Virus record (IMG/VR): IMGVR_UViG_3300030090_005562 | Coordinates: 64,001-128,000 of that record | Length of the DNA stretch: 64,000 nucleotides | Direction: 5' to 3' (one strand) | Source of the DNA: a virus | Shown: in pieces, positions 37,512-48,417 of the stretch | Layout of the letters: each line of letters starts with the position of its first letter | Position numbering within the stretch: the first letter of the stretch is position 1 | Notes under the pieces: model-generated | Database searches by the model: none | Told to the model about the DNA's origin: nothing | The model's input: only the letters and a program-made list of their open reading frames with translations | Program-made: the position numbers and the translations under genes

Positions 37512-37590
37512 GTATCTCTTGTGACCACAACGACTTAGCACTCTGCGGCGTGCCCGCTTCGACGTAACTCTTTACGCAATAAGCACTTAC
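37512..37590. repeat. 79-bp tripartite palindromic element, copy 1
   Basis: Box A 37512-37538, core GCGGCGTGCCCGC, box B 37564-37590. Confidence 0.9.
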
Positions 37591-37618
37591 AACTATTCTG
37601 CTTTTTTTTCTTTTTTTC

Positions 37619-37658
37619 TCAAGAATGCTCTTGACTTTTGCCGATAATATATTATAAT
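37619..37658 (+). promoter_or_regulatory. Composite sigma70 / sigma28-like promoter
   Basis: TCAAG(37619)-N16-GCCGATAA(37640) interleaved with TTGACT(37631)-N16-TATAAT(37653). Confidence 0.75.
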
Positions 37659-37703
37659 GGGGGCATGACAAACAACAATAATACTACTAAGGAAAACAAT
37701 AAC

Positions 37704-37937
37704 ATGTTTCAAGTAATTCAAACCATCGCTCGCTTTGGCCGTTTCAATCAAGAAGTTATCGGTAGCTTCGATACAATGAAAGAGGCGGCGGACTTCGCCA
37801 AGCGTTGCCACAATGGTAATCCTACTACGTGCATCAAGGATACTGAAAGCAATAAGGTATTCACCGCCCATAGGGATACCAATGGCACTTCGTTGGTATG
37901 GCAAACCGGTCCGATTTTCGCTGACCAAATACTTTAA
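37704..37937 (+). CDS. Small early protein, HNGNPTT family (paralogue of 38946..39167)
   Basis: Shares V.QT..R.G.F...VI......AA...A.R.HNGNPTT.I. Confidence 0.65.
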   Translation: MFQVIQTIARFGRFNQEVIGSFDTMKEAADFAKRCHNGNPTTCIKDTESNKVFTAHRDTNGTSLVWQTGPIFADQIL

Positions 37938-37954
37938 AAAATTATCAGAATTAT

Positions 37955-37995
37955 TCAAGAATGCCCTTGACAAATGACGATAATTATATTATAAT
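37955..37995 (+). promoter_or_regulatory. Composite sigma70 / sigma28-like promoter
   Basis: TCAAG-N16-GACGATAA with TTGACA(37967)-N17-TATAAT(37990). Confidence 0.75.
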
Positions 37996-38215
37996 GGCAA
38001 ACATGACAAACAACAATCAACAACGTTTTGAGAGGTTTAATACTATGAAAGAAATTATCTGCCAAATTTTGATGCCGCTGTGGGCGGTAGCCGTTGCACT
38101 CATTCCGATGGTTGCAATGTTCATCCTCTAGGGGATAGCATTAGGGCATCGACCCGCAAGCCTAGCCCAAGATGCTAGCATAGGTTGCCCCGCCTATTCA
38201 AGAAGGGGGCTTGAT

Positions 38216-38294
38216 ACAAAACCTTATGCTGTAAGCACTTAGGGTGGCTCGGCCTGCCCGCCGTGACGTAACTCTATACTACATAACGGCTTAC
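38216..38294. repeat. 79-bp element, copy 2
   Basis: Box A 38216-38242, core TCGGCCTGCCCGC, box B 38268-38294. Confidence 0.88.
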
Positions 38295-38548
38295 AACTAT
38301 TATGACTTTTTTTTTCTTTTTTGGTGAAATAGGGCTTGTATTTCCCAAACCATTCGATTAAAATATAGTATAAGAAAAAGGGAAAAACATTAAAGAAACA
38401 AGCAACAAAATGACGATAATAATAATAGAGAAAACAAACACGTGTGCCCCGCACACCTGTAGCCTTCCGGCGAGAAGGACAGAAGCGGGTTAAAGAAGAT
38501 ATGCAAACAACAAACAACAATACTCTAACCAAGAAAGGAGAAACAATC

Positions 38549-38713
38549 ATGGATTTTGATAATGGTATTTTTCGTACCGTTCCCCATGACACCATCGACG
38601 GTGTTGTGTGGTTGGTCCGCGTGGCTGATGGTGAGAGAATCACCTTCTGCCGGACTCAAGCTGACGTAGATTCCTGCGTCGCTGAGTTGATGCGACAAAG
38701 GCTTAGCCTTTGA
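38549..38713 (+). CDS. Small early protein, MDxDNGIF family (paralogue of 40572..40739)
   Basis: AAGGAG RBS; MDFDNGIFRTVPHDTIDGVVWLVRVADGERITFCR. Confidence 0.7.
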   Translation: MDFDNGIFRTVPHDTIDGVVWLVRVADGERITFCRTQADVDSCVAELMRQRLSL

Positions 38714-38945
38714 GCATCGGCGGGAAACGGGGCTTGACACATTGATTTTTGTTTGGTAGAATGAGAGAGTTATGATTGACATTGATAAAGCGATTACAGA
38801 ACACACCGAAAAATTCGACGCGATGATGGAAAAGCATCGTGCATTAATGGCGAAGCAAGATAGAGAAATTGCTGAGTTGCGGAATCAGCTTAATGGGTTG
38901 ATTGGCGTATTGGCTGATTGTAAATTAGAAATGAGGGATTGAGTT

Positions 38946-39167
38946 ATGAGTGAATTTTTACCCTACGAAGTTCGGCAGACGGTTGTAAGAGACGGGCAAT
39001 TTTGCACCGCCGTGATTGATGAGGCTTCGACTCTGAACGCCGCAAAGCTAATTGCGTATCGTTCACACAATGGGAATCCTACAACGCATATTCATTGTGC
39101 GTTATCTGGGGATACTTGGGGATATAAGAATAAAGATTGGAGATGGATAAGTGGAAAAAAAAGATAA
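38946..39167 (+). CDS. Small early protein, HNGNPTT family
   Basis: Paralogue of 37704..37937. Confidence 0.65.
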   Translation: MSEFLPYEVRQTVVRDGQFCTAVIDEASTLNAAKLIAYRSHNGNPTTHIHCALSGDTWGYKNKDWRWISGKKR

Positions 39168-46247: not shown

Positions 46248-46326
46248 CTAACCCCTTTGTGCGTAAGCACTTAGGGGCTAGCGGCCCGCCCGCCGCGCCG
46301 TAAACCCTTGCCCTGTAACGACTTAC
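46248..46326. repeat. 79-bp element, copy 8
   Basis: Box A 46248-46274, core GCGGCCCGCCCGC, box B 46300-46326. Confidence 0.9.
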
Positions 46327-46364
46327 GACGACTCTTTATTTTGTGAAAAAAAAATTTATTTCTC

Positions 46365-46405
46365 TAAAGAAAACCCCCTTGACAGGACGATATATTAAGT
46401 ATAAT
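46365..46405 (+). promoter_or_regulatory. Composite sigma70 / sigma28-like promoter
   Basis: TAAAG-N16-GACGATAT with TTGACA(46379)-N15-TATAAT. Confidence 0.7.
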
Positions 46406-46451
46406 AAGAGCATGTTAGTTGGTTATGTAAGTTTTTTAGGAGAATGTGTTT

Positions 46452-47690
46452 ATGAGTGAACAACTTGGAAACGGTGTTAAGGTTGGCGAAGCTGGTTCGC
46501 ACTTTACAGACAGTCAAGCGAAGGCGAAAGACTTTCGCAACGTGTCTAGTATCTGGGCGAGCAAGTGCATCTCTTTCGATGAAGGTCTGGAAAAGCTCAG
46601 CAACGAGCAGTCTGTTATCGAGGATTTTCGTGAGCCTCTTTCCGCGTTCGATACCGTTGTAACTGACAAGGGCAAGTTTGCAATTCGCAAGAAGTCTACC
46701 GGCAAGGATTATATTCCTACGCCGCACGCCCTACGTCAAATGGCGGTAGCAGGTCAAACGTCTGCGTGGATGTTCGAGGATTTGTGTACCGATAAAGTCG
46801 GCACCAAAAAGGGTGAGGAATTCAAGTATCGACGCGATTCGTCAGATGCGGGATTGCTCAAGCGTATCGTTGACCATACTCTATTCAATGGCAATCGGTT
46901 CGACCAAGACAAAACCCGTTTGTTCCGCACTTGGAAAAATGGTAGTCTGCGTGCTGTTCTGTCTGATAAGTATGCAATCGTGAATAATGAGTGGTATCTT
47001 GAACTGCTCAAAAAGTTGGTTCCAGGCGGTCTGTTGTCCCACTGGCGTGGCGATGCTGACTCCCTCTATGGTAACATTCTGATTCCCGATAGTATCCGAC
47101 AGGAAACTGATTCGGCCTATGGTGCGATGTTGAGCGTGGGCAATAGCGAAATCGGTATGCGGCGAATCTCGAACCTGCCGTCTGTCTTTCGAGCAATCTG
47201 CATGAATGGTTGCATCTGGGAGCAAGAGTCTGGCAAGAATGTTCGTCAGGTTCACCGTGGGGAATTGAATCTTGACCAGTTGGAATATACTATCAAGACC
47301 AATATCCAGGCCCAAATTCCGCTGCTCAACAAGGGGATTGATACCCTGCTTGATACTCGCAGTCGGACGTTCGGTGATGTCTCGGTTGACCAGATGCTTG
47401 CCGCTACTGCAAAGCAGTACAAGGTAAGTCGTACCGATATGGTTGGAATCCGCAAAGGTTTCGACGTAGAGGTTGGAATTCTTGGGACCGATGCTCGTAG
47501 CTCGTTTGGTCTGATTAACGCAATCACCCGCCACAGTCAGAATTGTGAGCCTGATGCGTGGGTATCGTTTGACCAACTCGGCGGTCGTCTTTCGCAACAG
47601 AGTGAAAAACAGTGGGGGAATCTCAAAGCCCTCGGCAAAACTTTCACCGAAACGAAGGACGTTGAGAAGTTGATTGGGCTAAATGTCTAG
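46452..47690 (+). CDS. DUF932-like protein
   Basis: LRAVLSDKYAIVNN, SVGNSEIG, VFRAICMNG, FGLINAITR. Confidence 0.7.
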   Translation: MSEQLGNGVKVGEAGSHFTDSQAKAKDFRNVSSIWASKCISFDEGLEKLSNEQSVIEDFREPLSAFDTVVTDKGKFAIRKKSTGKDYIPTPHALRQMAVAGQTSAWMFEDLCTDKVGTKKGEEFKYRRDSSDAGLLKRIVDHTLFNGNRFDQDKTRLFRTWKNGSLRAVLSDKYAIVNNEWYLELLKKLVPGGLLSHWRGDADSLYGNILIPDSIRQETDSAYGAMLSVGNSEIGMRRISNLPSVFRAICMNGCIWEQESGKNVRQVHRGELNLDQLEYTIKTNIQAQIPLLNKGIDTLLDTRSRTFGDVSVDQMLAATAKQYKVSRTDMVGIRKGFDVEVGILGTDARSSFGLINAITRHSQNCEPDAWVSFDQLGGRLSQQSEKQWGNLKALGKTFTETKDVEKLIGLNV

Positions 47691-47719
47691 TCTCCATAGC
47701 GGGGATAATCTGCCCCGAA

Positions 47720-47757
47720 GGGGGTTGGGGAATTTTCCCCGCCCCCTACCTTTTTTA
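47720..47757 (+). terminator. Rho-independent terminator
   Basis: GGGGGTTGGGGAA/TTCCCCGCCCCC stem followed by a T-run. Confidence 0.65.
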
Positions 47758-47758
47758 T

Positions 47759-47792
47759 TAAAGTTGACAACGTTGGATTGTCGATGTATAAT
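47759..47792 (+). promoter_or_regulatory. Composite sigma70 / sigma28-like promoter
   Basis: TAAAG-N16-GTCGATG with TTGACA(47764)-N17-TATAAT. Confidence 0.65.
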
Positions 47793-47893
47793 AGGGGATT
47801 GGAGGCTATGCCTATGGAAGAAACTTTGTTATTGTTAATTGGTTTGACAGGTGTTATAGTTGGTTGTCTTGAATCTATTAGGGGAGATTTAAA

Positions 47894-48337
47894 ATGAGAA
47901 AAGTTTTCGTATATTACAATTTACACAAGCACAAATGGTCCGTAAAGGATGTAAAAACAGGGCGTGTAATTGGCCATCATTACGAAGTATCGCTCTATAA
48001 CGCCAAGTTCAAAGTAAGTGAGGCCGGAAGGGCTCGCGTTTTAAAAGAGAAGCGTAAAAACGTCCACGCGGGCGTTGAGGGCTATCTGACGAAGCATGCC
48101 CTGCCTCGAAAAATGGACGGCACGATTCTCTGGGAATCTCAATCGGAGCGGCACAAGGTAACGTATGACCCCTACAAGTACGATACCTTTGTGACCGTCT
48201 CTGATAAGGAGCCTATCCACAAAGCCTACTTTGTGAGAATGGTGGCCTATGGTACGAACTGGGACGGTAAGGGGCAGTATCATGCCCCAGATGTTACAGC
48301 GGTGGTGCCGGTGGTGAAGGGGCTGATAACTGCTTGA
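47894..48337 (+). CDS. Conserved phage hypothetical protein
   Basis: VFVYYNLHK..WSV, VSEAGRARVLKEKRKNVHAGV, VTYDPYK. Confidence 0.7.
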   Translation: MRKVFVYYNLHKHKWSVKDVKTGRVIGHHYEVSLYNAKFKVSEAGRARVLKEKRKNVHAGVEGYLTKHALPRKMDGTILWESQSERHKVTYDPYKYDTFVTVSDKEPIHKAYFVRMVAYGTNWDGKGQYHAPDVTAVVPVVKGLITA

Positions 48338-48338
48338 C

Positions 48339-48417
48339 GTAAACCCTTATGGCGTAACGACTTAGGGGGCGGCGGGCGGCCCGCTTGAACGTAAATGGTG
48401 TGATGACAACGACTTAC
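48339..48417. repeat. 79-bp element, copy 9
   Basis: Box A 48339-48365, core GCGGGCGGCCCGC, box B 48391-48417. Confidence 0.9.

What the first reader, a model, noticed from the sequence alone, without database searches (positions are those of the whole stretch)
37512..48417. Nine copies of a rigid 79-bp tripartite palindromic element cut the early region into gene cassettes
Seen: copies start at 37512, 38216, 39303, 40066, 41692, 43573, 45033, 46248 and 48339. All share the same geometry with no indels: a 27-bp box (GTAA-N4-TTR-N5-YAA-sRAC-TTAS, an imperfect palindrome), 6 variable bp, a 13-bp GC palindrome (GCGGGC-N-GCCCGC), 6 variable bp, and a second 27-bp box. Box A to box B is 52 bp in all nine, about five helical turns. 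The N positions vary freely while spacing does not, which points to selection on protein-binding geometry rather than recent duplication. Copies are 0.7-2.1 kb apart and each lies between the end of one group of small genes and, usually, a T-tract plus strong promoter for the next. In copies 3 and 7 the upstream stop codon lies inside box A; in copy 9 it is 1 bp before it. Known: each half-box matches the YAA-N4-TTR core of the IHF consensus WATCAANNNNTTR but mostly lacks the WAT. Repeated regulatory cassettes that promote gene shuffling are known in T4-type phages (PeSL elements), but those are promoter stem-loops and lack this architecture. Inference: a nucleoprotein site (bending protein on both flanks, a dimer on the core) acting as a cassette recombination site, a coordinated operator/insulator for early promoters, or a DNA-entry or replication signal. 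No recombinase is visible in this window.
Basis: partly seen in the sequence, partly recalled or inferred. Interest (0 to 1): 0.92.

Follow-up and report, generated by a model that had tools for sequence, protein, structure and literature searches.

The report
Paired IHF-type boxes punctuating phage cassettes
Nine copies of a fixed-length 79-bp DNA element divide the early genes of an uncultured marine phage into promoter-led cassettes; its two flanking boxes read like mirror-image docking sites for the bacterial DNA-bending protein IHF, and the same element, which I could not find described, recurs in many unrelated ocean phages at the points where gene cassettes have been swapped.

Summary
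Confirmed. Nine co-oriented 79-bp elements lie at the stated coordinates: a 27-bp box, a 25-bp GC-rich spacer and a second 27-bp box. Box-to-box distance is 52 bp in all nine, and there are no other copies in the 148.8-kb phage record.

The element belongs to a large family I found no description of. I counted 81 copies in 12 uncultured phage records and hits in more than 120 marine metagenome contigs. GenBank phages gave none, and 596 Gb of bacterial genomes gave one.

Each box is two IHF consensus 13-mers back to back, sharing the central W. Some relatives carry this perfectly; here it is degenerate (YAA-N4-TTAC).

There is no RNA covariation and no Rfam hit. Between orthologues the GC core changes most, so 'a dimer on the core' is not supported.

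Every element lies 1-110 bp upstream of a strong sigma70-type promoter, at unphased distances. Relatives show cassette gain, loss and relocation with junctions at or inside elements. The phages encode no recombinase and no HU/IHF.

Best reading: paired docking sites for a host IHF-type bending protein that punctuate early transcription units and supply portable homology for cassette shuffling. The nearest known analogues are PeSL cassettes and BIME-1/RIP.

The scan noted this kind of element before on other phage DNA (e1-5661710, e1-5341031, e1-5321511, e1-5734977).

The parts
37512..37590 (+). Element 1: box A 37512-37538, GC spacer 37539-37563, box B 37564-37590
37591..37658 (+). T-tract, then a sigma70-like promoter (-35 at 37631, -10 ending at 37658; 11 of 12 matches)
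38216..38294 (+). Element 2 (degenerate box A and core)
39303..39381 (+). Element 3. The TAA of box A is the stop codon of the upstream ORF. Orthologue in L306 at 14420.
40066..40144 (+). Element 4, a chimera: from the 6 bp before box B onward it is homologous to a solo box plus iteron block that sits elsewhere in relative L306
40145..40470 (.). Iteron array of 15-bp palindromes bracketed by box B of element 4 and two solo 27-bp boxes (40301-40327, 40437-40463). Box spacings of 183 and 136 bp are the same in L306.
41692..41770 (+). Element 5; orthologue in L306 at 15996
41811..41839 (+). sigma70-like promoter after element 5 (11 of 12 matches), preceded by a T-tract
43573..43651 (+). Element 6; orthologue in L306 at 18474. 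Promoter at 43742-43769 (11 of 12 matches), 90 bp downstream.
45033..45111 (+). Element 7; orthologue in L306 at 19937. Followed by a T-tract and a promoter-like site before the GP88-family gene (45212-46003).
46248..46326 (+). Element 8, followed by an A/T tract and a promoter-like site
48339..48417 (+). Element 9. A promoter-like site at 48419-48446 starts 1 bp after the element's end, followed by tRNA-Arg(TCT) at 48466-48539.

Best explanation
The element is double-stranded DNA that binds protein. It is not an RNA.

Shown:
- Each 27-bp box has the form GTAA-N4-TT-N7-AA-N4-TTAC.
- In relatives the box is two IHF consensus 13-mers (WATCAANNNNTTR) on opposite strands, sharing the central W.
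- The conserved TT and AA steps are 9 bp apart.
- The boxes are kept between orthologues while the GC spacer drifts.
- In every lineage examined, the element lies after a group of early genes and 1-110 bp before a strong sigma70-type promoter.
- Module boundaries between relatives coincide with elements.

Inferred:
- A host IHF/HU-family dimer binds each box and bends it sharply. Two bends about five helical turns apart, around a stiff GC-rich spacer, would fold the boundary between two early transcription units into a set shape.
- This shape most likely insulates the upstream unit and sets up the DNA upstream of the next promoter. Single IHF sites upstream of lambda pL and Mu Pe work in a comparable way.
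- Because the copies and their promoters share sequence, they also give the phage's own recombination short homology. Element-bounded cassettes can then be lost, gained, moved and passed between co-infecting phages, as with PeSL cassettes.
For: - Family and geometry: 81 copies in 12 phage records, confined to one 7-15 kb early cluster per genome. Of 147 metagenome pattern hits, 130 match at least 9 of 11 frame positions that the pattern did not specify.
- IHF reading: a perfect double-consensus box occurs in more than 120 viral contigs, where fewer than 1 is expected, and 73 of 132 such boxes have a partner box. Arms with at most 2 mismatches to the 13-mer number 61 of 208, against a background of 0.8%. 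AA-N4-TTR is present in 160 of 208 arms.
- Acts as DNA rather than RNA: fold z-scores are about 0 and there is no Rfam hit. The arms of a box are less complementary than shuffled arms (3 perfect against 7.7 expected). No Watson-Crick covarying column pairs were found, and the core shows no G-U bias.
- Host factor rather than phage factor: G000 and G001 share the element but almost no proteins. Five element-bearing phages have no HU/IHF gene.
- Not a host repeat: 1 hit in 596 Gb of bacterial genomes.
- Promoter association.
- Boxes work as separate modules: solo boxes bracket an iteron array, with spacing conserved in L306.
- Selection on the boxes: orthologous boxes are nearly identical while the spacer diverges. 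Within G000, identity at variable columns is only 0.45, so the copies are old.
- Shuffling: a three-gene cassette bounded by elements on both sides sits at different places in G004 and G008. Between G000 and L306, the iteron block is relocated with its junction inside element 4, a cassette is replaced from the end of element 3, and L306 carries an extra element-promoter-ORF cassette whose left end is the element's first base.
Against: - No binding data exist and the host is unknown.
- In this genome the arms are weak IHF matches. Most have 3-4 mismatches of 9, with TAA rather than CAA and no WAT.
- The N4 positions and the outer flanks (TTGAC / GTCAA) are more conserved than in E. coli IHF sites. 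The protein could therefore be something else.
- Box spacing differs among lineages, at 41-42, 48, 50-52, 60 and 66 bp. There is no single helical phase.
- The distance to the promoter is unphased, and several equally strong early promoters have no element. The element is therefore not needed for promoter activity.
- Not all rearrangement junctions fall at elements. In G004 against G008, adjacency is broken at 8 of 11 intervals with an element and at 3 of 6 without, which is not significant.
Confidence: 0.5

Rival explanations
1. The boxes are operators for an unrecognised phage-encoded regulator, for example a protein that shuts off or coordinates the early promoters, rather than sites for host IHF.
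For: Arm sequences are genome-specific: ACCC/CGAC here and GTCC/GGGT in G006. Positions inside N4 and the flanking TTGAC/GTCAA are conserved. The G000 arms fit the IHF consensus poorly.
Against: Lineages that share the element (G000, G001) share no small protein at BLAST sensitivity. Pfam shows no DNA-binding domain in ten early-region ORFs. Some relatives carry the textbook IHF consensus perfectly.
Confidence: 0.2
2. The element works as RNA. The GC core, with or without the boxes, forms a 3' hairpin that attenuates read-through or protects the upstream mRNA, like the stem-loop of PeSLs or transcribed REP sequences.
For: All nine copies are co-oriented with transcription and lie at the 3' end of cassettes. 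The core can form 4-6 GC pairs. Most boundaries lack a canonical terminator. PeSL polyG/polyC stem-loops terminate as well as rrnB T1 without being classical terminators.
Against: Fold z-scores are about 0. There are no compensatory changes. The core palindrome leaves only a 1-nt centre. No U-tract follows the hairpin. Orthologous cores diverge without keeping their pairs. The G008 variant occurs in both orientations relative to the promoter.
Confidence: 0.15
3. The element is a site-specific recombination or transposition site (attC-, att- or MITE-like) that moves cassettes through a dedicated enzyme.
For: Cassette boundaries coincide with elements. The element has overall dyad symmetry, including its outer flanks. 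It is shared by unrelated phages.
Against: Five element-bearing phages have no tyrosine or serine recombinase. The central core, the expected crossover region, is the least conserved part. No target-site duplication was seen. One indel has only one end at an element and the other inside an ORF.
Confidence: 0.07

Closest known systems
PeSL (promoter-early stem-loop) cassettes of T4-type phages (Arbiol et al. 2010, PMC2839356)
   Same: Both are repeated intergenic modules in the plastic early region. Both include a strong sigma70-like promoter with an A/T-rich upstream tract and a G/C-rich dyad. Both lie between small genes of unknown function, and both mark the junctions of modular shuffling between relatives.
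   Different: PeSLs have no fixed-length element and no IHF-type boxes, and their stem-loop sits within or next to the promoter. Here a rigid 79-bp unit lies 1-110 bp upstream, its conserved parts are the A/T frames rather than the stem, and the phage is not T4-type. Terminator activity and mini-circles are not shown here.
E. coli BIME-1 / RIP (RIB) elements (my own knowledge)
   Same: Both are a composite of a GC-rich palindrome and an IHF site. Both are repeated, lie at the 3' ends of transcription units, and have an unsettled function.
   Different: The order is inverted: RIP is REP-IHF-REP, and this element is IHF-GC-IHF. RIP is a host chromosomal repeat, whereas this family is essentially absent from bacterial genomes.
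Single IHF sites upstream of phage early promoters (lambda pL, Mu Pe; my own knowledge)
   Same: An IHF-type site lies tens of bp upstream of a strong early promoter read by host RNA polymerase.
   Different: Those are single, asymmetric sites at fixed positions. Here the sites are paired and symmetric, are repeated 5-13 times per genome, and lie at variable distance from the promoter.
Neisseria Correia elements and integron attC sites (my own knowledge)
   Same: All are short symmetric repeats between genes. Correia elements carry an IHF site, and attC sites bound gene cassettes.
   Different: Correia elements have terminal repeats with a TA duplication and a central IHF site. attC needs IntI and conserves structure rather than sequence. 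Neither a recombinase nor structural covariation is found here.

Membership tests
IHF binding site | Match to the 13-bp consensus WATCAANNNNTTR | tested here: inconclusive
   In G000, 7 of 36 arms have at most 2 mismatches and 20 of 36 at most 3 (background 0.8% and 4%). Across the family, 61 of 208 arms have at most 2. The match is perfect on both strands in the G002/G003/G010 boxes and in more than 120 other contigs.
IHF binding site | Geometry: two kinks 9 bp apart, with the consensus running from the centre to about +12 of a roughly 35-bp site (from the IHF-H' crystal structure; my own knowledge) | tested here: met
   The conserved TT (positions 9-10) and AA (18-19) steps are 9 bp apart. 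TTA lies at +10 to +12 from the box centre. The box plus its conserved flanks is a 37-bp dyad.
IHF binding site | Binding and bending by IHF | not testable with these tools
   Needs EMSA or footprinting. The host is unknown.
PeSL cassette | Strong sigma70-like early promoter with an A/T-rich upstream tract | tested here: met
PeSL cassette | Stem-loop that terminates transcription | tested here: inconclusive
   The core can form 4-6 GC pairs, but there is no covariation and no functional test.
PeSL cassette | Resident of a T4-type phage genome | tested here: not met
   No nucleotide match to any GenBank phage. The large terminase is 27% identical to Bacillus siphophages.
PeSL cassette | Junctions of modular shuffling fall at the repeats | tested here: met
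   (mini-circles not testable)
BIME-1 / RIP | Two inverted REPs flanking one IHF site, repeated in a bacterial chromosome | tested here: not met
   The order is inverted. There is one hit in 596 Gb of bacterial genomes.
Site-specific recombination site (att / attC) | Cognate tyrosine or serine recombinase and a conserved crossover core | tested here: not met
   PF00589 and PF00239 are absent from five carriers. The core is the least conserved part.
Intrinsic terminator | GC hairpin followed within 0-2 nt by a U-tract | tested here: not met
   The scan finds no terminator-like site at any element. The T-tract starts about 44 nt after the core.
Any Rfam RNA family | Covariance-model match | tested here: not met
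   Only tRNA hits at E up to 1.

The most novel reading that the evidence does not exclude
These elements are a phage-specific class of host-factor-dependent 'punctuation marks'. Paired symmetric IHF sites would fold each boundary between early transcription units into a defined nucleoprotein knot. That knot would insulate neighbouring strong promoters and travel with its cassette between unrelated marine phages, making it a portable regulatory and recombination module distinct from PeSL, BIME and attC.
Probability: 0.35. Interest if true: 0.8.

Novelty: new variant of a known kind. Interest (0 to 1): 0.65.

Why it matters
The carriers belong to a very abundant lineage of uncultured ocean phages; the capsid protein alone has more than 5000 relatives. 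If the reading holds, their early gene expression depends on a host architectural protein through a modular DNA element that unrelated phages share. That would give a concrete handle on three things: how early regions are organised, why they are so plastic, and how promoter-led cassettes spread between phages. The 79-mer is small enough for direct binding, bending and reporter tests in a surrogate host.

Tried and rejected
- Structured RNA: nine single folds had z about 0, Rfam gave only tRNA, and there was no arm complementarity or covarying pairs.
- Host repeat: one hit in the bacterial genome collection, on a 1.7-kb contig of a Planctomycetaceae MAG that looks like phage DNA.
- Phage-encoded HU/IHF, tyrosine recombinase or serine recombinase: none in five carriers.
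- Cultured relatives: no match in 50,697 GenBank phage records for the region or for two relatives' elements.
- Literature: three full-text searches found no description. The one sequence hit was a PCR primer.
- A GP88-family gene relative (L298) proved to be an unrelated phage without elements.
- Helical phasing to the promoter and a universal box spacing: both rejected.
- Long hairpin pairing box A with box B: only the frame positions match.
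Full report
**Observation.** The window is bases 64001-128000 of a 148,761-bp IMG/VR phage record, estimated 60% complete. A weight matrix built from them finds no tenth copy in the record. A single-box pattern finds the 18 boxes plus two solo boxes at 40301 and 40437, against one hit for the reversed control pattern. The geometry of 27 + 6 + 13 + 6 + 27 bp, with 52 bp box to box, holds in all nine.

**Setting.** The region is a run of small + strand genes downstream of the divergence from the structural genes. 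Most elements are followed by about 10 bp, a T8-9 C T6-7 tract and a near-consensus sigma70-type promoter. Copy 9's promoter-like site starts 1 bp after the element and drives tRNA-Arg. Copy 4 is followed by an iteron array. Terminator-like sites are not enriched (15 found, 13.8 expected) and none lies at an element. Several equally strong promoters in the region have no element, and one is preceded by a classical G/C hairpin plus T-run.

**A family, not a private repeat.**
- Two pattern scans of IMG/VR recovered the same 79-bp geometry in eleven other records, in clusters of 2-13 copies.
- A profile search finds 81 copies in 12 records. In the records held whole (G000, G001, G004, G005, G006, G008) the copies are confined to one 7-15 kb early cluster per genome.
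- G000, G004, G005, G006 and G008 are one lineage: capsid 61-71% and large terminase about 50% identical. G001 shares almost no proteins with G000.
- The same pattern hits more than 120 marine metagenome contigs, some from TARA. Of 147 hits, 130 also match at least 9 of 11 frame positions that the pattern left free.
- It hits one 1.7-kb contig in 596 Gb of bacterial and archaeal genomes. Nothing in GenBank phages matches.
- The capsid family has more than 5000 members, none bearing an organism or phage name.

**What the boxes are.** The frame conserved across 41 ungapped copies is GTAA-N4-TT-N7-AA-N4-TTAC, with moderately conserved flanks TTGAC and GTCAA.
- In the G002/G003/G010 group the box is a perfect dyad whose centre reads TTGAT-W-ATCAA. 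That is two copies of the IHF consensus WATCAANNNNTTR on opposite strands sharing the central W, and it accounts exactly for the 27-bp length.
Of 132 such boxes, 73 have a partner box. Partner spacings peak at 48 and 50-51 bp, with smaller groups at 41-42, 60 and 66 bp.
- The conserved TT and AA steps are 9 bp apart. As I recall the IHF-DNA crystal structure, this is the spacing of the two kinks.
- Among 208 arms, 61 have at most two mismatches to the 13-mer (background 0.8%). In G000 itself only 7 of 36 do. Its arms keep AA-N4-TTAC but have lost WATC.
- The IHF assignment for this genome therefore rests on homology with better-preserved relatives. It is an inference.

**DNA, not RNA.** The nine copies fold no better than shuffles, and Rfam has nothing. 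The N4 arms of a box are less complementary than randomly paired arms (3 perfect against 7.7 +/- 2.3), so the hairpin is not under selection. A scan of all column pairs finds no Watson-Crick covariation. The core dyad is well kept only at its innermost pairs and shows no marked G-U excess.

**What selection acts on.** A relative 70-88% identical in nucleotides was reached by walking from its capsid gene (L306, a 126.6-kb JGI contig). In four orthologous pairs the boxes are almost unchanged, while the GC spacer is the most diverged part and carries 1-bp indels. Spacings there are 51, 51, 53 and 51 bp. This argues against a sequence-specific dimer on the core, and shows that 'rigid' means about +/-1 bp within the lineage. 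Within G000, identity at variable columns is 0.45 against 0.35 between genomes, so the copies are old rather than recent duplicates.

**Relation to promoters.** In G000, G001, G004-G009 and G011 a promoter matching 10-12 of 12 consensus positions lies on one side of the element and points away from it. The distance is 1 to 110 bp and shows no helical periodicity. Orientation relative to the promoter is fixed in most lineages. The G008 variant, which has one box, a CCGGCCGGCC-type core and a C-run/G-run hairpin, occurs both ways round.

**Cassette exchange.**
- Between G004 and G008, a three-gene cassette bounded by elements on both sides sits at a different place in the array. However, junctions also occur inside cassettes: adjacency is broken at 8 of 11 intervals with an element against 3 of 6 without.
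- Between G000 and G005 two neighbouring cassettes are swapped, and G006 has two G000 cassettes' genes in one.
- G000 against L306, relocation: the iteron block is relocated, with the junction between the core and the last 6 bp before box B of element 4.
- G000 against L306, replacement: the cassette after element 3 is replaced from the end of the element.
- G000 against L306, insertion: L306 has an extra element-promoter-ORF unit of 470 bp. Its left end is the element's first base, and the element's TAA supplies the stop codon of the upstream gene. The right end lies inside an ORF.
- G000 against L306, elements 1-2: the region around elements 1 and 2 is replaced.
- No tyrosine or serine recombinase and no HU/IHF gene is present in five carriers.
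- The pattern fits homologous or short-homology recombination at shared boundary sequences, as described for PeSLs. It does not fit a dedicated site-specific system.

**Verdict.** The most likely account is a pair of docking sites for a host IHF-type bending protein around a GC-rich spacer, marking the boundary between early transcription units and serving as portable homology for cassette shuffling (confidence about 0.5). Rivals are a phage-encoded regulator (0.2), an RNA 3' hairpin (0.15) and a dedicated recombination site (0.07). I found no published description. Earlier agents of this scan reported the same kind of element in other phages, with lengths of 68-77 bp and the same IHF reading. 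I reached that reading independently (note, look-ups).

Noticed in passing
window 40145-40470: An array of about nine 15-bp palindromes (GGGGCA-N3-TGCCAC type) plus TGCCAAAA repeats, bracketed by three 27-bp boxes 183 and 136 bp apart. The whole block is conserved at 84% identity but sits at a different place in relative L306 (12947-13396). It is a candidate replication origin or partition site with sites for an architectural protein.
   Followed up: partly
window 37631-37658, 41811-41839, 43742-43769 and the other early promoters; also G004-G008 and G011: The promoter spacers carry a conserved CCGATA or GACGATAA motif. It resembles both the sigma28 -10 element (GCCGATAA) and the H-NS nucleation motif, and a CTAAAG or CTCAAG lies upstream of the -35. 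The motif is shared by several phage lineages.
   Followed up: no
window 47721-47792: A classical G-run/C-run hairpin plus T-run lies immediately before a 12 of 12 sigma70 promoter. This is a PeSL-like boundary without the 79-bp element.
   Followed up: no
G008 (L036), e.g. record positions 34319, 41709, 46590: A variant element in which one box is replaced by a C4-loop-G4 hairpin and the core is CCGGCCGGCC-like. It occurs in either orientation relative to the downstream promoter.
   Followed up: partly
window 37659-37710, 37996-38020, 42348-42370, 45180-45210: CA-rich leaders (ACAAACAACAA repeats) follow many early promoters. In some cassettes an ATG lies only 6-9 nt after the -10 element, so some early transcripts may be leaderless.
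   Followed up: no
window 45212-46003 and 47894-48337: These early genes belong to the Pfam families of mycobacteriophage L5 gp88 (PF17338) and gp82 (PF25735). Their relative order and cassette membership differ among G000, G005 and G006.
   Followed up: partly
window 20748-21797 (-): The major capsid protein has more than 5000 homologues at E below 1e-20, none carrying an organism or phage name. Those with a stated source are marine or TARA metagenomes, so the lineage is abundant and has no named representative.
   Followed up: partly
G001 (L019) record positions 86313-90561: In this unrelated phage the ATG of the downstream gene lies 7 nt after the -10 element, so these transcripts are near-leaderless. 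Its box B is 21 of 27 identical to a G006 box, including unconstrained centre positions, which suggests horizontal spread of the element.
   Followed up: no
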